61,053 nucleotides of DNA from a virus. Positions 1 to 61,053 of this stretch are shown piece by piece (within the stretch, counting starts at the first letter, position 1; each line of letters starts with the position of its first letter). Below the pieces are notes generated by a model, which was not told the origin of the DNA, searched no databases, and saw nothing but the letters and a program-made list of their open reading frames with translations. The translations under genes and the position numbers were made by a program. The DNA lies in the IMG/VR virus record IMGVR_UViG_3300027793_000007; one strand, 5' to 3'.

Positions 1-127
1 CTACTGCAAACAGGTAAATGAAGATTTCATCATCTTCTGGTCATCTGGCGAGTTGGCGGAAGAAAACACGATGATTGGATACCACCGAGGTAAGCCAATA
101 ATCGTCACACGGCACGACTGCTACGGC
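1..127. repeat. terminal overlap, copy A (identical to 60927-61053)
   Basis: ctactgcaaacagg...cacgactgctacggc is present at both contig ends. The 127-nt length equals a common assembler k-mer, which implies a circular or circularly permuted genome. Confidence 0.9.
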
Positions 128-2947: not shown

Positions 2948-5038
2948 CTAATCCTTACTCCATATACGTCTGTCGCGATAAACAGCTAATTTACATGGCT
3001 TTGAAGAATAACCCATGTTAGTCAGAATTGCCTTGACTTCAGCCGTGAAACCTTTTGGTATGGCTTTTCCTTGCCATATCTGAGCATTAAGAGCAGGGAT
3101 GAACACAAAGTCATAGCCCGTAGTATGCATGAACGTCTCAACAGCATTTCTTACCACTTCAAAGTAATCAGACTGGCAAATGTACTGCTGATTATCCCTA
3201 GTGGTGGTAGCAATTAGTCTATCGAAAGAACCTAGAGATGGGTTGGTTAATGCTTCTTGATAAGCGCTTGCCCAAATAGCATCAACATCAATTCTTAGCT
3301 GAGGAATGTTAACTCTAGTGCCAGTTGGAATCTTGCAGACCATCCATCTACGCTGTGAATAGGTATCAGAAAGAAACTGATAGTCTGTGGTAGTACCACC
3401 TATAACAAATGGGGTAGGTTTTTGTTCATCTCTCGATACATACATTACATTGTAATTAACGCATGGTTTAGTAATGAACTCGTTGATTTTGTCCCTGTTT
3501 TCTGCCTTGAGAACTAGAACCATTTCATCCCAAAAACATAGCCAGCTCTTAGTAAGTGCAGACTCGACTCCACTGTGGAAGCTAGACATAGAGTATATCC
3601 AAGACTTGAAGAATGCACTAAATGTAGCAGTCTTGCCACAGCCTGAGTTGCCAATTAATACTAGGCAAAAGGGGAAGTCAGTAAACTCTTCTTCATTGAT
3701 TTGCCTAAGCACTGCTGCCTTCAGAAACAAAGAGAAATACTCGTCCTCTTGCTCAGTCCCACCCCAGTATTTACTAGCAATATTAGTGTGGGAAATCCCT
3801 TGTTTAACCTTGCAAGACTGCAGGTATTCAATAATAGGATTGTAACTATTCTCTAGGGCTACATGGTCAACAATTAAAGGTGCATCCCATCTAGGCATAG
3901 AAATATTAGTCTGAGTTCTAACCTTGGCAATGATTTGGTTAATAGTCTTTTTCTCACCTTTGAACTCATGCCTATTGAGAAGCTTGTTGTATCTGATAGA
4001 GCCTTTAGCCCATTCAGTTAAGGCGTTGACAGCATTGCTAAATGGGTTGTCAATAACTTCAGTAGGATCGTTGTCTAGATGATCCCATGTACCACTAGAG
4101 CTAGGTAGATACTTAGCATTAGTAGAGCGCCAGCCACAGTCATAAGCCCATCTAAAGATAGATTTGTAGGTATAGCCACCTTGATAGCCTTCACCTTGCC
4201 ATTGTGACCATCTATAGGCAAAGTTACATCTAATAGACTTAGGTGACTGCTCAGACCATCTAACCCAATCATCAAAGAGTGATTCAGATGTAGCTTTAAG
4301 AGCCATTCCCACCTTGTGCCACCCATCCTCATCGTCAAGGTACTGAGGTGAGTTAATAGCCATTAATGCTGACCTAACTTCATCTAACAACTCACTCTCA
4401 GACTTAGTTGTTTTGACCTTAGACGGCTTAGTTTTAGTTGTAGGAGTAATAGGTTGGTAGTGCCGTTCTAGCGGCTTAGCAATTTCGTCTAGTGTGTAGG
4501 TATAGCCAGTGTGTTTAGCAATGGTAGATACATAGCCCGTCTTAGGGTGGACACCACCAGCTAGCCTCATTAGCCGAGCAGGGTTAACTAGTTTTGTATC
4601 AGCTTTAAGTACATTAACTAGCATTGTCTGAACTAATACCCATTGTTCAGGGTCTACAGGTTTAGATAGGACATAGTAGGAATGAACAGATTTACCACCC
4701 GTGTCTACTTGGATGGTAGGTTCTGGCAGTCCATACTTTTGCCACATAGACATAGACTCTTCCTTAGAAATGTCATCATGCTCATAGAACAGGGCATAGC
4801 TTTGGGTAACATCTTTGTCCTTATAAGCGCGGTTAGGACAATAAAATATATTGAGTTGCTTAGCCTCTTGCTGACTAATCCCTAGGTAATCAACATCAGG
4901 ATACACAAAAGATAGCTTTCTAGATGTCTTGCCTTTGCCACCATCTATAGGTAGGCAATTAAGAAGCACCGTATCCCCTTCAACAAAACCCAACGCACTC
5001 AAGTGAGTTAACGCATCTTGTACAGTAGTTTTATCCAT
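2948..5038 (-). CDS. bifunctional AEP primase-polymerase / SF3 (D5/P4-type) helicase
   Basis: AEP motifs FYEHDD, GGKSVHSYYVL and ARLMRLAGGVHPKTG. PriCT-like DDEDGWHKVGMALK. Walker A GNSGCGKT and Walker B CFWDE. Confidence 0.9.
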   Translation of the reverse strand: MDKTTVQDALTHLSALGFVEGDTVLLNCLPIDGGKGKTSRKLSFVYPDVDYLGISQQEAKQLNIFYCPNRAYKDKDVTQSYALFYEHDDISKEESMSMWQKYGLPEPTIQVDTGGKSVHSYYVLSKPVDPEQWVLVQTMLVNVLKADTKLVNPARLMRLAGGVHPKTGYVSTIAKHTGYTYTLDEIAKPLERHYQPITPTTKTKPSKVKTTKSESELLDEVRSALMAINSPQYLDDEDGWHKVGMALKATSESLFDDWVRWSEQSPKSIRCNFAYRWSQWQGEGYQGGYTYKSIFRWAYDCGWRSTNAKYLPSSSGTWDHLDNDPTEVIDNPFSNAVNALTEWAKGSIRYNKLLNRHEFKGEKKTINQIIAKVRTQTNISMPRWDAPLIVDHVALENSYNPIIEYLQSCKVKQGISHTNIASKYWGGTEQEDEYFSLFLKAAVLRQINEEEFTDFPFCLVLIGNSGCGKTATFSAFFKSWIYSMSSFHSGVESALTKSWLCFWDEMVLVLKAENRDKINEFITKPCVNYNVMYVSRDEQKPTPFVIGGTTTDYQFLSDTYSQRRWMVCKIPTGTRVNIPQLRIDVDAIWASAYQEALTNPSLGSFDRLIATTTRDNQQYICQSDYFEVVRNAVETFMHTTGYDFVFIPALNAQIWQGKAIPKGFTAEVKAILTNMGYSSKPCKLAVYRDRRIWSKD

Positions 5039-7600: not shown

Positions 7601-7620
7601 GACGCTACGCTATAGGATAA
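7601..7620 (+). promoter_or_regulatory. phage promoter-like motif, copy 3
   Basis: gacgctacgctataggataa, 18 nt upstream of ATG 7639. Confidence 0.6.
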
Positions 7621-12918: not shown

Positions 12919-12938
12919 GCTACTACGTTAGGGGATAG
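12919..12938 (+). promoter_or_regulatory. phage promoter-like motif, copy 13 (variant), abutting a CRISPR-type repeat
   Basis: gctactacgttaggggatag is followed immediately by the repeat at 12939. Confidence 0.5.
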
Positions 12939-12976
12939 GGATTCAAAGCCTCTAAAACCCTTTTAGGGATTGAAAC
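12939..12976 (+). CRISPR. solitary CRISPR-type repeat unit (38 nt)
   Basis: ggattcaaagcctctaaaacccttttagggattgaaac. Identical over 41 nt to 16190-16230. Ends in the ATTGAAAC 5'-handle sequence typical of Cas6-type crRNAs. No second repeat occurs downstream. Confidence 0.6.
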
Positions 12977-13032
12977 TCAATTCAGCAGAGGACAGATTAG
13001 AGTTCTCCCTTTCTCGTAACATCATCTCCCAA

Positions 13033-15589: not shown

Positions 15590-15612
15590 CCATCTAGTAC
15601 TCTATCCTCAAG

Positions 15613-15634
15613 GACGCTACGCTACTGGGGGACG
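15613..15634 (+). promoter_or_regulatory. phage promoter-like motif, copy 17
   Basis: gacgctacgctactgggggacg, with left arm ctatcctc upstream. Faces the 1.28-kb ORF-free region. Confidence 0.5.
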
Positions 15635-15666
15635 ATGCGGCACATTGTCCTGACCACTACCTCTAG

Positions 15667-15685
15667 CATCTACGCTAGGGGATAG
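15667..15685 (+). promoter_or_regulatory. phage promoter-like motif, copy 18
   Basis: catctacgctaggggatag, about 375 nt upstream of the tRNA-like element. Confidence 0.55.
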
Positions 15686-16059
15686 TGTTAGATAACCTCA
15701 ACCACTATCAAGAGTAGGTGCATATCAGCACTGTACGAGGAACTGCTCCGTTCTACTGTCACACTTGGATTTAGCAGTTGTTCATCCAAGCGCATACAGC
15801 AAGCAAGCTCTGGATTTAGCGGCGAAAGTGTAGAGGAGTCATGACCTTTGCTTAGTAGTGTTAGTCTATGTCTAACCTTGCCTCTTGATTAGTCTATCGA
15901 ACCATGCATCCGAACAGACTTTAAACAGGAAGGTATGGAGAGTTGTTGCTAAGCTCTTTAAACTGCAAGTGGCGCTATCCACATCCTAAACATGGCAACA
16001 GATGTTGAACTGTAAAGACAACTACGGCAAGCTATGGGCCGAGAAATATATTAGCGGTA

Positions 16060-16186
16060 AGATGAGTGGCGGAATTGGTAAACGCATAGGCTGGAACTTA
16101 ATATGTGGAATTAACCCCGTCCTCTGCTATGGCTGTATTGCCAGCTATCAGAGTGTTCCTTACAGGTTCAAATCCTGTCTCATCTA
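16060..16186 (+). tRNA. non-canonical tRNA-like element (127 nt) with an oversized anticodon-side domain
   Basis: 7/7 acceptor pairing agatgag/ctcatct. Leu-type D arm tg-gcggaattggtaaacgc. Canonical T arm acagg-ttcaaat-cctgt. The middle is about 40 nt too long. It holds the helix atag(g)ctgg/ccagctat and one anticodon-like hairpin ttaat-AUGUGGA-attaa (16098-16114, would read GUG). Confidence 0.5.
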
Positions 16187-16189
16187 TAA

Positions 16190-16272
16190 GGATTCAAAGC
16201 CTCTAAAACCCTTTTAGGGATTGAAACTCATCTATAAGGTCTAGGTGGATAACCCCTATTAGGGATTGAAAC
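16190..16272 (+). CRISPR. mini CRISPR-like array: full 38-nt repeat, 23-nt spacer-like segment, degenerate 22-nt repeat 3' half
   Basis: Repeat 16190-16227 is identical to 12939-12976. aacccctattagggattgaaac (16251-16272) matches the repeat's 3' end at 20/22. The array begins 3 nt after the tRNA-like 3' end. Confidence 0.6.
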
Positions 16273-16811
16273 AACAAAATGCTAGAAAACATCATACCCT
16301 TATCCACCAACGCCTCGGTAAGAATGCCCGTTATAACCTTAATAGAACCTTGCTTTCAGGGTAAAGCCATAACATGAAGCTGCCATAAGGAATGCAGTGT
16401 GCAGATTAAAATGGCGTCTACATAAGGGAGGGTATTAACACAGGATACTTAGGGAATAATCAATACCTAAGAAGTGGGTTCGTTCATGCTAAGCCTATCC
16501 GTTAGAACTTTAAAGTTGCAACTTTAAATCCCAATAGCCGATAGAGGTAGGACATGGCTATCCTGTGTAGATGATTTGTTGCTATATTGCACAATGCTGT
16601 GGGTATCCAAAGGCAGTGTAATAGAGATGGGGGAGTGCAAGTCGTCCCTGACTAGGAGCTAAGTGGGGTATCTAGCTAGCAATCAATCATCCATTCATTA
16701 CAGGGAAGTAATTAAAGTGGGAAGCAAAGGAATAGCTAATACTTTGCACTGACAACGGGTTAATAACCTAACTTAATAAGTGGTTTGCTTATATTCCCAC
16801 TGTCCATTCTA

Positions 16812-16870
16812 TGCTATAATCTATTCATTACTAATGACTCTTCGGAGTAGAGAGAACTGAATAGATTATG
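16812..16870 (+). promoter_or_regulatory. host-type extended -10 (TGcTATAAT) plus 9-bp inverted repeat and a UUCG hairpin before ATG 16868
   Basis: tgctataat at 16812-16820. atctattca (16819-16827) pairs with tgaatagat (16858-16866). Inner hairpin actc-ttcg-gagt. No phage motif copy here. Confidence 0.45.
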
Positions 16871-17792: not shown

Positions 17793-18002
17793 ATGAAGAA
17801 GAAATACATTCTAAGACCAGGGTATGTGACAAGCATTAATGATGGTCAACTTCATTGGATAACAGCAGAGAAGTTAATGGCTTTGTATGGAGTAAGTAAA
17901 GATGAATGCTATACAATGGACTCTATTAGAGGTGTTGATGTAACAGGGCTAATTAACCTGCGCGCAGACCCGCTAGGCAACTACTCTCTCGCTAAACCAT
18001 AA
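17793..18002 (+). CDS. hypothetical protein (69 aa)
   Basis: Track ORF, tightly packed. Confidence 0.55.
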   Translation: MKKKYILRPGYVTSINDGQLHWITAEKLMALYGVSKDECYTMDSIRGVDVTGLINLRADPLGNYSLAKP

Positions 18003-18271
18003 TGACTAAGGGTGATATCGTACTATTCAAACCAGCTAAGACTGCCACTAAGGGTAGTGATGGATTAGCACGCATGGTCAAACAGTACGATTCGCCTTGT
18101 GTTGTGTATCAAATCATAGGCTATTGGGCATACCTTTATAGACTAATGGATGGTGGTATTCATGTAGCACCGCGAAGCGAACACTGGGCTTGTATTGATA
18201 TAGATTTGTCTGTGTATGCAGATAAGTTAGATATGGTAAGTCATTTATTAGAGGTTGGAAGTAATGAGTAA
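18002..18271 (+). CDS. hypothetical protein (89 aa)
   Basis: Track ORF. Its last 32 codons are duplicated as a remnant at 18476-18571. Confidence 0.55.
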   Translation: MTKGDIVLFKPAKTATKGSDGLARMVKQYDSPCVVYQIIGYWAYLYRLMDGGIHVAPRSEHWACIDIDLSVYADKLDMVSHLLEVGSNE

Positions 18272-18475: not shown

Positions 18476-18571
18476 CGCGGTGAACATTGGTGTTGTGTTG
18501 ATGTAGACCTTGATATGTATGCAGATAAGTTGGACTTGATAGGACATTTACTTGAAGTAGGGATAGGATGA
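18476..18571 (+). pseudogene. remnant copy of the 3' end of gene 18002..18271
   Basis: Translates RGEHWCCVDVDLDMYADKLDLIGHLLEVGIG* versus RSEHWACIDIDLSVYADKLDMVSHLLEVGSNE*. A stop lies immediately upstream (18473-18475) and there is no start codon. Confidence 0.65.
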
Positions 18572-26039: not shown

Positions 26040-26059
26040 CACGCTACGCTATGGGGTAG
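26040..26059 (+). promoter_or_regulatory. phage promoter-like motif, copy 24
   Basis: cacgctacgctatggggtag, 17 nt upstream of ATG 26077. Confidence 0.55.
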
Positions 26060-28667: not shown

Positions 28668-28689
28668 GACGCTACGCTATGGGGGAAAG
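28668..28689 (+). promoter_or_regulatory. phage promoter-like motif, copy 25
   Basis: gacgctacgctatgggggaaag. Starts 1 nt from the divergent start codon (28666) and ends 17 nt upstream of ATG 28707. Confidence 0.6.
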
Positions 28690-32256: not shown

Positions 32257-32513
32257 AATGGCATTTATCAATTGATGATTGGCAAACATCCGAAGACTGG
32301 TTAAATGCAAGTGACTGTGACCTTGTTATTCTTGATATCAGAACTCTTGGCTATAACACCAATATTGTTTTATCATTTCAACCTATCTGTAATTGGCTAT
32401 GGCAATGGGATGTAGATGTATTTAACCCTAGACCTTTTGGCGAAATAATACGGGTCAACCACAAGTTCCCGTCTTTTGATTTTGGGATAGTAGTTAAGAA
32501 GGTGAAAGTATGA
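32253..32513 (+). CDS. Trp-rich small protein, tandem family member 1
   Basis: MKWHLSIDDW...FQPICNWLWQWDVDVF; GTGA coupling. Confidence 0.55.
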   Translation: MKWHLSIDDWQTSEDWLNASDCDLVILDIRTLGYNTNIVLSFQPICNWLWQWDVDVFNPRPFGEIIRVNHKFPSFDFGIVVKKVKV

Positions 32514-32773
32514 GATGGCATTTATCCATTACTGATTGGCGAAAAGATGAGGAAGAAATGTTGTTTACTATTGCCGATTTTGACCTTGTTATTCTTGTTC
32601 TTTGGGCTTGGGGCTATAGAGTTATCTTCCAATGGTCATTTCAACCTATATATAATTGGCTATGGCAATGGGAGGTACAAGTATTTGGCTCTAGACCTGT
32701 TAATGAGTTAATTAGGATTTATCATAAACTGCCATCGTTAAACTTTCTTGTCATTGTTCACGGAGAAGACTGA
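32510..32773 (+). CDS. Trp-rich small protein, tandem family member 2
   Basis: MRWHLSITDW...FQPIYNWLWQWEVQVF; ATGA coupling. Confidence 0.55.
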   Translation: MRWHLSITDWRKDEEEMLFTIADFDLVILVLWAWGYRVIFQWSFQPIYNWLWQWEVQVFGSRPVNELIRIYHKLPSLNFLVIVHGED

Positions 32774-36180: not shown

Positions 36181-36474
36181 CTATAGTTTGCCCACAAGTT
36201 TGTTTTGAAGGAGATAACCTTCTAGTTGCCACAACTGGTTTTCAGCTTGTTCTCGCGCTACTTGTCTGCCAATCTCAATATTAAAGTTAGCAGGGTCAAC
36301 ACAAGCGCCTCTACCAAGCAGGGTAAAGCCTGAAGATAGTTTATAGGACACCACGACTTCTTTATCCCAAAACACTGCTTCTTGGGTTTCAGCAGTGTCA
36401 AGCAATTCCTTGATTTGGGTAAGAGTTACTCGGTTAGAGTTGTGACTAGAATAGTCAATATTGCAGTCTGGCAT
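36181..36474 (-). CDS. N4 gp49 / Sf6 gp66-family protein
   Basis: FTLLGRGACVDPANFNIEIGRQVAREQAENQLWQLEGYLL matches my recollection of that family's conserved core. Confidence 0.55.
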   Translation of the reverse strand: MPDCNIDYSSHNSNRVTLTQIKELLDTAETQEAVFWDKEVVVSYKLSSGFTLLGRGACVDPANFNIEIGRQVAREQAENQLWQLEGYLLQNKLVGKL

Positions 36475-43387: not shown

Positions 43388-43407
43388 AACGCTACGCTAG
43401 GGGAGGA
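43388..43407 (+). promoter_or_regulatory. phage promoter-like motif, copy 31
   Basis: aacgctacgctaggggagga, 18 nt upstream of ATG 43426. Confidence 0.6.
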
Positions 43408-50535: not shown

Positions 50536-50922
50536 TTAGTTAAGATATTGTTGTCTCAAAGCTTCAGCTTGAAGTGCCATCAGTTGACCTTCAATCTCAG
50601 CATCACGTATAGCCTTCTCTTTCTTCTCAGGGAATTTATAGAGATTCCCTGATAACTTAGCTGCTTGTTGTAAAGCTTCCATGTCACTTAAAGGGTCGCC
50701 ATACACTTGTCTCCTCAAAGCTAAGTTAACGTTATCGCCAACCATAGCCATCTCATTAGCATTAGCTTGACCCGTTGCTTGAGTAGCTTGAATGGCTGGT
50801 TGTTGTGGATTACCCATCAATGCCATAGCTCCTAACCCTAGTCCAGCTACACCAACAGCAGGGATACCGTACTGTGCGTAGACAGGTAATGCATCCCACC
50901 TATCTCTTATTCCTTGCATCAT
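50536..50922 (-). CDS. glycine-zipper-rich protein 5
   Basis: GIPAVGVAGLGLGAMALMG. Confidence 0.55.
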   Translation of the reverse strand: MMQGIRDRWDALPVYAQYGIPAVGVAGLGLGAMALMGNPQQPAIQATQATGQANANEMAMVGDNVNLALRRQVYGDPLSDMEALQQAAKLSGNLYKFPEKKEKAIRDAEIEGQLMALQAEALRQQYLN

Positions 50923-50960
50923 AAGTTAATACCTTGTCTTTGCTTTAATCATACTATGTA

Positions 50961-52597: not shown

Positions 52598-52617
52598 GAC
52601 GCTACGCTATGGGGAAG
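52598..52617 (+). promoter_or_regulatory. phage promoter-like motif, copy 32
   Basis: gacgctacgctatggggaag, 28 nt upstream of ATG 52646. Confidence 0.6.
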
Positions 52618-60864: not shown

Positions 60865-61053
60865 ATGCTAACTCTTAGATATCCCTGCGACTATCGTTTT
60901 TCAAGCAATGGTGGGGACTACGCCCACTACTGCAAACAGGTAAATGAAGATTTCATCATCTTCTGGTCATCTGGCGAGTTGGCGGAAGAAAACACGATGA
61001 TTGGATACCACCGAGGTAAGCCAATAATCGTCACACGGCACGACTGCTACGGC
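60865..61053 (+). CDS. 5' part of the junction-spanning hypothetical gene (continues at 128..343)
   Basis: ATG 4 nt after GGAGA. MLTLRYPCDYRFSSNGGDYAHYCKQVNEDF... reads in frame into the track ORF 53..343. Confidence 0.6.
   Translation, partial: MLTLRYPCDYRFSSNGGDYAHYCKQVNEDFIIFWSSGELAEENTMIGYHRGKPIIVTRHDCYG
60927..61053. repeat. terminal overlap, copy B (identical to 1-127)
   Basis: See copy A. Confidence 0.9.

What the first reader, a model, noticed from the sequence alone, without database searches (positions are those of the whole stretch)
16060..16330. tRNA-like element fused to a CRISPR repeat and a degenerate second repeat
tRNA-like element (16060-16186):
- It has a perfect 7-bp acceptor stem, a Leu-type D arm and a canonical GTTCAAATC T arm.
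- Its middle is about 40 nt too long. It folds as an extended helix (atag-g-ctgg/ccagctat) enclosing a hairpin with a perfect 7-nt anticodon-style loop AUGUGGA (16103-16109).

Repeats:
- Three nucleotides after the discriminator base, the same 38-nt CRISPR-type repeat as at 12939 begins (41 nt identical).
- It is followed by 23 nt and then a 22-nt degenerate repeat 3' half (20/22), which keeps AGGGATTGAAAC. Then comes more ORF-free sequence (aacaaaatgctagaaaacatcatacc...).
- The 12 nt tcatctataagg spanning the tRNA 3' end and repeat start (16180-16191) recur right after the repeat (16228-16239). The tRNA-end-plus-repeat unit was therefore tandemly duplicated.

RNase P and RNase Z processing of the tRNA-like part would release a defined repeat 5' end. 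I am not aware of a described natural version of this tRNA-guide arrangement. Motif copies 17 and 18 lie upstream and could drive the whole roughly 1.2-kb non-coding transcript.
Basis: partly seen in the sequence, partly recalled or inferred. Interest (0 to 1): 0.85.

Follow-up and report, generated by a model that had tools for sequence, protein, structure and literature searches.

The report
Phage-borne host CRISPR repeats beside tRNA-like gene
A roughly 61-kb virus of the cyanobacterium Pseudanabaena carries copies of its host's CRISPR repeat next to a tRNA-shaped RNA gene; these are a known kind of viral counter-defence element, and sitting beside the tRNA-like gene looks accidental rather than designed.

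Summary
Window 16060-16186 is a 127-nt tRNA-like gene (Rfam tRNA, 40.4 bits). Its acceptor, D and T arms are intact, but it has no canonical anticodon arm.

Four nt later comes a 37-nt repeat (16191-16227). It matches the Pseudanabaena type I-D CRISPR repeat at 36/37 positions and is identical to the copy at 12940-12976. A "half repeat" follows at 16249-16272, keeping only the Cas6 hairpin and the AUUGAAAC handle.

Host spacers with GTA PAMs hit this phage. The same lineage's two full repeats are already listed as type I-D solitary repeat units (Racr candidates) in Camara-Wilpert et al. 2023.

The tRNA-repeat fusion is not a conserved design:
- In 2 of 6 otherwise identical assemblies, exactly one 48-nt unit is missing (the 12-nt direct repeat plus the full repeat).
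- In five relatives (L004, L005, L013, L014, L089) the repeat units sit elsewhere: beside a tRNA-like gene only in L014 (34 nt upstream), and never fused to a tRNA 3' end.

One new lead came out of the comparison. In 4 of 4 testable junctions, the DNA after the repeat handle is preceded by a GTN PAM in genomes that lack that junction. This suggests either origin by recombination with host arrays or use as guides against sibling phages.

Best reading: Racr or mini-array-type hijack elements, with the tRNA adjacency incidental.

The parts
16060..16186 (+). tRNA-like RNA gene, 127 nt. Acceptor 16060-16066 / 16179-16185, discriminator A at 16186, Leu-type D arm 16069-16085, T arm 16162-16178. No canonical anticodon arm.
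   Evidence: Rfam tRNA 40.4 bits. Default ARAGORN finds none, and intron mode forces a 46-nt insert. Across six related phage tRNA-likes the top-half stems are 92.7% paired, and 12 of 16 pairs show compensatory changes.
16093..16159 (+). Extended arm that replaces the anticodon domain. Closing helix GGAAC (16093-16097) / GUUCC (16155-16159). Conserved internal segment 16098-16121 (..GUGGAAUUAACCCCGUCC). Variable hairpin 16122-16153.
   Evidence: Cloverleaf-constrained MFE. Homologous elements L005 3366-3547 and L079 1088-1217 keep the closing helix through 3 double-sided changes, and each carries a different terminal hairpin.
16180..16191 (+). First copy of the 12-nt direct repeat TCATCTATAAGG. 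It covers the tRNA-like 3' end plus 5 nt and is preceded by GTC (16177-16179).
   Evidence: Sequence. It bounds the 48-nt indel seen in L083 and L084.
16191..16227 (+). Full solitary CRISPR repeat (SRU-B): GATTCAAAGCCTCTAAAACCCTTTTAGGGATTGAAAC.
   Evidence: Matches the commonest Pseudanabaena repeat at 36/37 (708 copies). Matches 35/35 to the array of the ABRG5-3 type I-D plasmid. Rfam CRISPR-DR5 31.1 bits. Absent in L083 and L084. Listed as a type I-D SRU in the supplement of PMC10651486.
16228..16239 (+). Second copy of the 12-nt direct repeat, and the start of the 21-23-nt stretch between the two repeat units.
16246..16272 (+). Half repeat: flank GTGGATAA plus the hairpin CCCCUAUUAGGG and the 8-nt handle AUUGAAAC.
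   Evidence: Rfam DR5 model positions 14-37, 22.6 bits. 89% identical over 28 nt to the L004 half repeat at 4329-4356. 17 nt identical to the second repeat of the L089 mini-array. Present in all six strain-level assemblies.
16273..16320 (+). Remnant of a small ORF (ATGCTAGAAAACATCATAC...) directly after the handle. It is deleted in L086, which places the handle next to AGAATGCCCG (preceded by GTA at 16318-16320 in the window).
   Evidence: The ORF is intact in L004, L005, L007 and L079. The L086 junction was verified.
12940..12976 (+). Full solitary CRISPR repeat (SRU-A), identical to SRU-B. It lies 2 nt after a motif copy (12923-12937) and is followed by a terminator-like hairpin at 12988-13007.
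   Evidence: Present in 4 of 5 strain-level contigs. In L095 a different ~145-nt cassette, ending in GTT, replaces it.
15670..15684 (+). Copy of the genome-wide motif CTACGCTAnnGGRnA at the head of the non-coding island. A second copy lies at 15617-15631.
   Evidence: In L004 the half repeat sits 9 nt after the homologous motif copy.
50904..50951 (-). Protospacer matched 46/48 by a spacer of Pseudanabaena biceps PCC 7429 (L069), with 5' GTA.
36278..36309 (-). Protospacer matched 29/32 by a Pseudanabaena MAG spacer (L052), with 5' GTA.
18080..18117 (+). Site in small gene 18002-18271 that matches the spacer of the L089 viral mini-array: 27/38 overall, first 11 nt perfect, 5' GTC.

Best explanation
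The window is a complete genome, about 60.9 kb, of a phage that infects Pseudanabaena.

Positions 15590-16867 form a plastic non-coding island. In relatives this island holds tRNA and tRNA-like genes and small ORFs. In this phage it contains two kinds of element.

(a) A structurally maintained, non-decoding tRNA-like RNA.

(b) Directly 3' of it, host-derived CRISPR repeat material:
- a full type I-D repeat, which is a recent and still polymorphic 48-nt insertion identical to the older copy at 12940;
- an older 'half repeat' that keeps only the Cas6 hairpin and the 8-nt 5' handle.

Proposed mechanism (inferred, not shown):
- These are virus-borne solitary repeat units.
- When transcribed, host Cas6 binds and cuts them.
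- The resulting handle-bearing phage RNAs occupy Cas6 and the Cas5/Cas7 backbone of the type I-D complex, and of any type III complex that shares the repeat.
- This dilutes the phage-targeting crRNAs, which is an RNA anti-CRISPR (Racr-type) decoy effect.

Their exact handle-to-protospacer junctions suggest they entered by recombination with host arrays whose spacers match the phage.

The tRNA-like gene is a neighbour, not a component. Its 3' end merely happened to supply the GTC-flanked site at which the full repeat landed.
For: Shown:
- Repeat identity to host type I-D arrays that sit next to cas6-cas4-cas1d-cas2, and to a full annotated I-D operon.
- The hairpin and handle are retained in both units.
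- No cas gene was found among the 73 ORFs of 80 aa or more that were scanned (73 of the 99 listed).
- Host spacers with GTA PAMs hit the phage.
- There are two identical full copies plus a half copy, all on the + strand.
- Repeat units recur at different junctions in five relatives, always on the + strand.
- The full copy beside the tRNA-like gene is a 48-nt presence/absence polymorphism among otherwise identical genomes.
- The same two repeats are catalogued as type I-D SRUs in the supplement of PMC10651486.
- That paper shows experimentally, for types I-F, I-C, I-E and V-A, that SRUs inhibit CRISPR in a dose-dependent way by forming aberrant Cas complexes.

Support for a recombination origin:
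- In 4 of 4 testable junctions the sequence after the handle is preceded by GTN in alleles that lack the junction.
- The GT dinucleotide frequency is 0.06.
Against: - There are no expression or processing data, and no type I-D Racr has been tested experimentally.
- A pure decoy does not predict the PAM adjacency.
- None of the 1,783 host spacers sampled equals a post-handle sequence.
- The half repeats of the window, L004 and L089 share a 5' flank that is not part of the repeat. At least some of them therefore moved between phage sites rather than coming independently from host arrays.
- The promoter is unidentified: there is no sigma-70-like site near the element, and the motif is strand-fixed regardless of gene orientation.
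Confidence: 0.5

Rival explanations
1. Guide generator against sibling phages. The repeat handle turns the native DNA that follows it into a crRNA spacer. Genomes lacking that junction carry the same sequence behind a GTN PAM. The host type I-D system would therefore be steered against un-inserted relatives during co-infection, which is mini-array logic with the phage's own flank serving as the spacer.
For: - 4 of 4 junctions are PAM-adjacent in the alternative allele: GTC in L083/L084, GTT in L095, GTT in L007/L008/window, and GTA in the window versus L086.
- Target alleles co-exist as otherwise identical genomes.
- The L004 post-handle sequence matches L008 at 37/38 behind GTT.
- Relative L089 carries a true mini-array. 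Its 38-nt spacer matches the neighbouring gene of relatives (26-31/38, perfect 11-nt seed, GTT or GTC PAM). Its own copy has AGC in place of the PAM, plus a seed mismatch.
Against: - In the window the guide between the two units is only about 23-25 nt before the next hairpin, whereas host spacers are 33-38 nt.
- There is no second repeat after 12976 or 16272.
- The PAM statistics are post hoc and rest on four junctions.
- The precise 48-nt deletion in L086 is explained more easily by recombination than by selection on random deletions.
- There is no functional evidence.
Confidence: 0.25
2. Recombination scars that give escape only. A phage targeted at a GTN-flanked protospacer recombined with the targeting host array. 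The PAM side was replaced by the repeat end, so the site became 'self'-flanked. Under this reading the repeats have no further function.
For: - It accounts for the exact handle-to-protospacer junctions and the PAM adjacency.
- It accounts for the precise L086 deletion, by homology to the repeat on one side and to a spacer on the other.
- Both junctions are polymorphic, as expected for recent events.
Against: - A point mutation in the PAM would be enough for escape from type I-D.
- Repeat units recur, and the hairpin plus handle are kept intact in five relatives, always in the + orientation.
- Two identical full copies exist.
- No matching host spacer was found.
Confidence: 0.15
3. One reading: a designed tRNA-guide module. 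RNase P and RNase Z cut out the tRNA-like part and so define the 5' end of the repeat RNA. This would be a natural counterpart of engineered tRNA-gRNA arrays.
For: - The acceptor stem, T arm and D-loop GG are intact, there is no encoded CCA, and the discriminator is A, so RNase P/Z recognition is plausible.
- The half repeat lies about 10 nt after the tRNA-like gene in the L083 form, and it is fixed in all six strain-level assemblies.
- In L014 a half repeat lies 34 nt upstream of a tRNA-like gene. That is the typical host spacer length, so RNase P could define a crRNA-like 3' end.
Against: - The adjacency of the full repeat is polymorphic.
- L007 has the same tRNA-like 3' end without any repeat.
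- The other repeat units are not next to tRNAs.
- Cas6 defines the relevant ends itself.
- The arrangement in L014 is the reverse of the one in the window.
Confidence: 0.1

Closest known systems
Viral solitary repeat units / RNA anti-CRISPRs (Racr; Camara-Wilpert et al. 2023, PMC10651486)
   Same: - A single host-type CRISPR repeat in an intergenic region of a phage that has no cas genes.
- The host carries the matching subtype.
- The identical 35-nt sequence is listed twice, typed I-D, on an IMG/VR contig from sample 3300008105 (Ga0114338_1003244).
   Different: - No type I-D Racr has been tested.
- Here a half unit (hairpin plus handle only) accompanies the full units.
- One unit abuts a tRNA-like gene. 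tRNA is not mentioned in the main text of that paper.
- The junctions are PAM-adjacent in alternative alleles, which the decoy model does not predict.
Virus-borne mini-CRISPR arrays used in interviral conflict (Medvedeva et al. 2019, recalled from memory; summarised in PMC11656645)
   Same: - Host-type repeats on a virus, with a guide that matches close relatives.
- L089 in this clade fits fully.
   Different: - In the window there is no host-length spacer between two repeats.
- The candidate 'spacer' is the phage's own flanking DNA.
Viral crRNA-like regulatory RNAs (Cracr; bioRxiv 10.1101/2024.10.29.618823)
   Same: - Degenerate repeats flank a short spacer-like stretch on a phage.
- Pseudanabaena chromosomes do carry a stand-alone mini-array with half repeats that resembles a host crlRNA.
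   Different: - The window's post-handle sequences share no seed with the host mini-array spacers.
- That survey reports types V-A, I-F, I-E, I-C and I-B, not I-D.
Engineered tRNA-flanked guides: icrRNA with t-elements (Maier et al., PMC4326828) and polycistronic tRNA-gRNA arrays (the latter recalled from memory)
   Same: A tRNA-shaped element sits directly beside a repeat or guide, so RNase P/Z could define an RNA end.
   Different: - Those constructs are artificial and replace Cas6.
- Here the Cas6 hairpin is intact, and the adjacency is polymorphic.
Phage tRNA islands containing aberrant tRNAs and tRNA-like stable RNAs (for example T4 species 1 and 2 RNAs, recalled from memory)
   Same: A co-located cluster of tRNA and tRNA-like genes in a non-coding island, with canonical acceptor and T arms.
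   Different: - The anticodon domain is replaced by a 67-nt arm with a conserved internal segment and a hairpin that varies between genomes.
- It is the only tRNA-type gene in this genome.

Membership tests
tRNA (Rfam RF00005) | Covariance-model score at or above the gathering score | tested here: met
   40.4 bits against 29, covering the full model 1-71 but with a 43-nt and a 26-nt insertion.
tRNA (Rfam RF00005) | 7-bp acceptor stem, D arm with G18 G19, and T arm with the GTTCRANYC loop | tested here: met
   All pairs are standard. Compensatory changes occur across six related elements.
tRNA (Rfam RF00005) | 5-bp anticodon stem with a 7-nt loop (U33, anticodon, purine 37) at the canonical distance, and total length about 72-95 nt | tested here: not met
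   The element is 127 nt. Default ARAGORN finds no gene. Only a forced 46-nt 'intron' gives an anticodon. The best fold has no anticodon arm.
Solitary repeat unit / Racr candidate | High sequence and structure similarity to the CRISPR repeat of the host | tested here: met
   36/37 and 35/35 matches to Pseudanabaena type I-D repeats. The hairpin and handle align to CRISPR-DR5.
Solitary repeat unit / Racr candidate | [quoted passage not shown] | tested here: met
   No cas family was found among the 73 ORFs of 80 aa or more that were scanned. Only three repeat-core matches exist in 61 kb. Caveat: the unit at 16191 has a partial repeat 21 nt downstream.
Solitary repeat unit / Racr candidate | Host encodes the matching CRISPR-Cas subtype | tested here: met
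   Type I-D operons lie beside arrays with this repeat. Host spacers with GTA PAMs hit the phage.
Solitary repeat unit / Racr candidate | Own promoter within about 250 bp, and expression as a small RNA | tested here: inconclusive
   A motif copy lies 2 nt upstream of the 12940 unit, and a terminator-like hairpin lies 12 nt downstream. The motif's function is unknown. No sigma-70-like site lies near 16191.
Solitary repeat unit / Racr candidate | Inhibits CRISPR-Cas interference by sequestering Cas proteins | not testable with these tools
   This needs infection or plasmid-targeting assays and pull-downs.
Viral mini-CRISPR array | At least two repeats enclosing a spacer of host-typical length | tested here: not met
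   21-23 nt lie between the units, against 33-38 nt in 1,629 host spacers. The feature is met in relative L089, which has a 38-nt spacer.
Viral mini-CRISPR array | Spacer matches related viruses next to the system's PAM | tested here: inconclusive
   The post-handle sequences equal the alternative alleles behind GTN at 4 of 4 junctions. However, this identity comes from common descent, not from spacer acquisition.
Viral crRNA-like regulator (Cracr) | At least 9 PAM-proximal nt shared with a host CreA/CreR-type spacer or a cas promoter | tested here: not met
   The post-handle sequences do not match the spacers of the host stand-alone mini-array. The cas10d promoter regions were not searched for seed matches.

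The most novel reading that the evidence does not exclude
A single Cas6 hairpin plus handle, inserted right after a GTN in the phage's own genome, would convert the adjacent native DNA into a guide. That guide would make the host type I-D system destroy sibling phages lacking the insertion, while the carrier is protected because the repeat end replaces the PAM. This would be an allele-specific, drive-like form of interviral conflict. The same junctions could equally be the footprints of recombination with the host array that was targeting the phage.
Probability: 0.25. Interest if true: 0.8.

Novelty: new member of a known kind. Interest (0 to 1): 0.5.

Why it matters
Solitary CRISPR repeats in viruses are numerous: 2,103 were catalogued in PMC10651486. 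They have been tested for only a few subtypes, and their origin is unknown.

This abundant freshwater cyanophage offers a natural experiment.
- Its exact exonuclease protein is indexed in 245 blocks of the assembly collection.
- Co-circulating genomes are identical except for the presence or absence of one repeat unit, or of the 48 nt behind another.
- At every junction that could be examined, the alternative allele carries the type I-D PAM.

This makes three questions directly testable by competition assays and small-RNA sequencing:
1. Do such repeats arise by recombination with the targeting host array?
2. Do they act as decoys?
3. Do they act as weapons against sibling phages?

The tRNA-repeat fusion that drew attention is probably not a natural tRNA-guide processing device.

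Tried and rejected
- Intron-containing tRNA: the 46-nt insert has no known bacterial splicing route, no group I or other Rfam match exists, and the ARAGORN call is forced.
- tmRNA: none found.
- Host tRNA captured with a host repeat: no host locus in hand has a tRNA next to a solitary repeat.
- Protospacer search for the post-repeat segments: INPHARED shows nothing beyond repeat-like hits in Nostoc and Microcystis phages. Among session loci only self and allelic matches appear.
- Cracr reading: no seed match to host mini-array spacers.
- Interviral targeting by the half repeat's flank: it matches the small ORF of L007 and L004 over 21 nt, but 3 of the first 4 seed positions mismatch. This is homology by descent.
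- Phage RNA polymerase that might read the motif: not found by Pfam, PHROGs or PDB sequence search.
- Distant relatives (exonuclease 60-64% identical; L080-L082) have no non-coding island.
Full report
**What the window is.**
- The 61,053-nt window ends in a 127-nt copy of its own start, so it is a complete genome of about 60.9 kb.
- It encodes a large terminase, virion and tail-fibre proteins, a primase/helicase, an exonuclease and MazG. No cas gene, integrase or recognisable RNA polymerase was found among the 73 ORFs scanned.
- It has no close relative among deposited phages.
- It is abundant in metagenomes: its exact exonuclease protein is indexed in 245 blocks of the assembly collection.

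**The observation.**
- Rfam's tRNA model matches 16060-16186 (+) at 40.4 bits (gathering score 29). This is the only Rfam hit in the genome.
- The acceptor stem (7 bp), the Leu-type D arm and the T arm are canonical. The D arm differs at 1 of 20 positions from a host tRNA-Leu in L063.
- The element is 127 nt long. Default ARAGORN rejects it, and intron mode forces a 46-nt insert.
- Four nt after the discriminator a 37-nt repeat begins (16191-16227). It is identical to 12940-12976.
- 23 nt further lies a 22-nt half repeat (20/22). Rfam's CRISPR-DR5 model aligns it to model positions 14-37, that is the hairpin plus the 8-nt handle.
- The 12-mer TCATCTATAAGG flanks the full repeat on both sides.

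**Whose repeat it is.**
- The repeat core occurs in 64 genomic stretches, nearly all in CRISPR arrays of Pseudanabaena.
- The commonest 37-mer is GATTCAAAGCCTCTGAAACCCTTTTAGGGATTGAAAC (708 copies). It differs from the phage copy at one position.
- The array on plasmid ABRG53e of Pseudanabaena sp. ABRG5-3 has the phage's A15 variant.
- These arrays sit beside cas6-cas4-cas1d-cas2 and full annotated type I-D operons.
- Two host spacers hit the window: 46/48 at 50904-50951 and 29/32 at 36278-36309. Both protospacers are preceded by GTA, which fits the GTN PAM of type I-D (my knowledge of the family).
- The host is thus Pseudanabaena, and its type I-D system targets this phage.

**The repeats are already catalogued.**
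- Supplementary data of Camara-Wilpert et al. 2023 list an IMG/VR contig from sample 3300008105 (Ga0114338_1003244). It has two solitary repeat units of exactly this sequence, typed I-D, 3,076 nt apart. In the window the two are 3,251 nt apart.
- That paper shows that such units act as RNA anti-CRISPRs for types I-F, I-C, I-E and V-A.
- tRNA is not mentioned in its main text.

**The fusion to the tRNA-like gene is recent and polymorphic.**
- Six assemblies with the identical exonuclease have an island identical to the window's 1,278 nt, apart from two 48-nt indels.
- L083 and L084 lack exactly one 12-mer plus the full repeat. This leaves the tRNA-like gene, then TAAGGTCTAGGTGGATAA, then the half repeat.
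- L086 lacks the 48 nt directly after the half repeat's handle.
- The 12940 copy is present in four of five strain-level contigs. In L095 a different ~145-nt cassette replaces it.
- The 45 nt shared by the two copies include short flanks (ATA-GG and TCA). The 16191 copy may therefore have been copied from 12940 by microhomology. This is an inference.

**Relatives.**
- Related phages carry ordinary-looking or aberrant tRNAs, a tRNA-Tyr and small ORFs in the same island.
- L007 is the closest relative (exonuclease 95% identical). At the same site it has a tRNA-like gene with the same acceptor stem and T arm but a different interior, and no repeat. It runs straight into the small ORF, of which the window keeps only a remnant at 16277-16320.
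- Repeat units occur elsewhere in the relatives:
  - a half repeat 9 nt after a motif copy in L004;
  - a full unit downstream of the exonuclease in L005;
  - a unit after the small ORFs in L013;
  - a half repeat 34 nt upstream of a tRNA-like gene in L014;
  - a two-unit mini-array in L089.
- All are on the + strand.
- Adjacency to a tRNA-like 3' end is unique to the window lineage.

**The tRNA-like RNA.**
- Across six related elements the acceptor, D and T stems are 92.7% paired. Twelve of 16 pairs show changes on both sides.
- The window's element is homologous along its length to L005 3366-3547 and L079 1088-1217.
- These homologues keep a closing helix: GGAAC/GUUCC in the window against GCGG/CCGC in the others, with three double-sided changes. 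They also keep a conserved internal segment (..AACCC(C)GUCC) and carry three different terminal hairpins.
- This looks like a maintained structured RNA rather than a decaying pseudogene. It cannot decode as a normal tRNA, and its function is unknown.
- RNase P/Z processing is plausible from the intact top half. This is an inference.

**An unexpected regularity.** Wherever an allele without a given repeat junction is available, the DNA that follows the AUUGAAAC handle is preceded by GTN in that allele:

| Junction | Sequence after the handle | Alternative allele | Preceding 3 nt |
|---|---|---|---|
| Window full repeat at 16191 | TCATCTATAAGG | L083/L084 | GTC (the tRNA-like T stem) |
| Window full repeat at 12940 | TCAATTCAGCAG | L095 | GTT |
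| L004 half repeat | AGATAAC | L007, L008, window | GTT |
| L086 deletion junction | AGAATGCCCG | window | GTA |

- L008 matches the L004 post-handle sequence at 37/38.
- With a GT frequency of 0.06, four of four is about 1e-5 by chance. It is about 2e-4 if the first case is set aside as the one that generated the hypothesis.
- L089 carries a genuine mini-array. Its 38-nt spacer matches the adjacent small gene of relatives, including window 18080-18117 (27/38, perfect 11-nt seed, GTC PAM). L089's own copy has AGC in place of the PAM, plus a seed mismatch.
- A pure decoy does not predict this pattern. Two models do: recombination with a host array whose spacer matches the phage, and selection for guides against siblings.
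- No matching host spacer was found among 1,783 sampled.

**Verdict.**
- The locus is a tRNA-like RNA gene followed by virus-borne CRISPR solitary repeat units of the host's type I-D family. This is a known kind of element, and this lineage's full repeats are already listed.
- The most likely mechanism is hijacking of host Cas6 and the crRNA-binding proteins by repeat-bearing phage RNA (confidence 0.5).
- Use as guides against sibling phages is a serious rival (0.25). Functionless escape scars (0.15) and a designed tRNA-processing module (0.10) are less likely.
- Only engineered tRNA-guide fusions were found in the literature. The evidence here argues that this natural adjacency is incidental.

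Noticed in passing
window, whole genome (e.g. 7605-7619, 26044-26058, 28672-28686, 43392-43406, 52602-52616): The motif CTACGCTAnnGGRnA has 44 matches at up to 2 mismatches, 38 of them on the + strand. They sit in nearly every intergenic gap. This holds even where all long genes are on the - strand, and there the motif lies 1-46 nt from the start codon in inverted orientation. That is odd for a promoter. It could be a strand-specific DNA signal such as a nick, replication or packaging site.
   Followed up: partly
L089 1640-1725 (Logan SRR27489460_161553); window 18080-18117: A relative carries a two-unit mini-array. Its 38-nt spacer matches the neighbouring small gene of other clade members behind GTT or GTC. 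Its own copy has the PAM changed to AGC (a Val-to-Ser change) plus a seed mismatch. This is a signature of interviral targeting combined with self-protection.
   Followed up: yes
L018, L031, L037, L038, L077 (Pseudanabaena chromosomes); L059: A conserved stand-alone host mini-array: promoter, half repeat, ~32-nt spacer, half repeat, then a terminator-like tail. The first spacer has a second 18/19 match about 450 nt upstream in the same locus. It resembles a CreA/CreR-type crRNA-like regulator for the type I-D repeat family.
   Followed up: partly
L002 10940-11060, L003 1510-1630 (IMG/VR contigs 3300012346_000677 and 2830716703_000001): Unrelated viral contigs carry a sigma-70-like promoter, a half repeat, a 35-nt spacer, a full DR5-type repeat and a terminator. 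This is a compact viral mini-array.
   Followed up: no
L095 1080-1225 (ENA ERZ25039512 contig_111693), equivalent to window 12938-12976: In one strain the 12940 repeat is replaced by an unrelated ~145-nt non-coding cassette between the same motif copy and the same downstream sequence. The site behaves as a cassette slot.
   Followed up: partly
L014 225-330: A motif variant, then a half repeat (GCCCTTTCAGGGATTGAAAC), then 34 nt (typical host spacer length), then a tRNA-like gene with the AGATGAG acceptor. Cas6 and RNase P together could release a crRNA-sized RNA.
   Followed up: no
L005 3366-3547, L079 1088-1217, window 16060-16186: A small family of long tRNA-like RNAs (127-182 nt). They share a conserved internal segment, and the terminal hairpin differs in every genome. 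In L005 and L079 the element lies just upstream of the exonuclease promoter rather than in the first tRNA slot.
   Followed up: partly
window 15890-15945, 16018-16058, 16438-16502, 16545-16567, 16810-16867: Blocks of the non-coding island are conserved at 85-95% in relatives whose surrounding sequence is unalignable. The last block contains a conserved TATAAT-type box upstream of the exonuclease gene. The others may be small RNAs or regulatory sites.
   Followed up: no
L212 2501-2539 (Pseudanabaena galeata plasmid pPg_02, NZ_CP112876.1): A solitary full type I-D repeat on a host plasmid, about 100 nt downstream of a Tn3-family transposase gene and away from any array.
   Followed up: no
window 18179-18258 / 18482-18561 and 32373-32483 / 32636-32746: Diverged tandem duplications (74% identity). 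The first pair lies in and after the small gene that the L089 spacer matches.
   Followed up: no
window 15798-15887: The only similarity to a deposited phage is an 89-nt non-coding stretch, 81% identical to an unannotated region of Pseudanabaena phage PA-SR01.
   Followed up: no
window 1-127 and 60927-61053: An exact 127-nt terminal direct repeat. The window is therefore a complete genome, either circularly assembled or terminally redundant.
   Followed up: no
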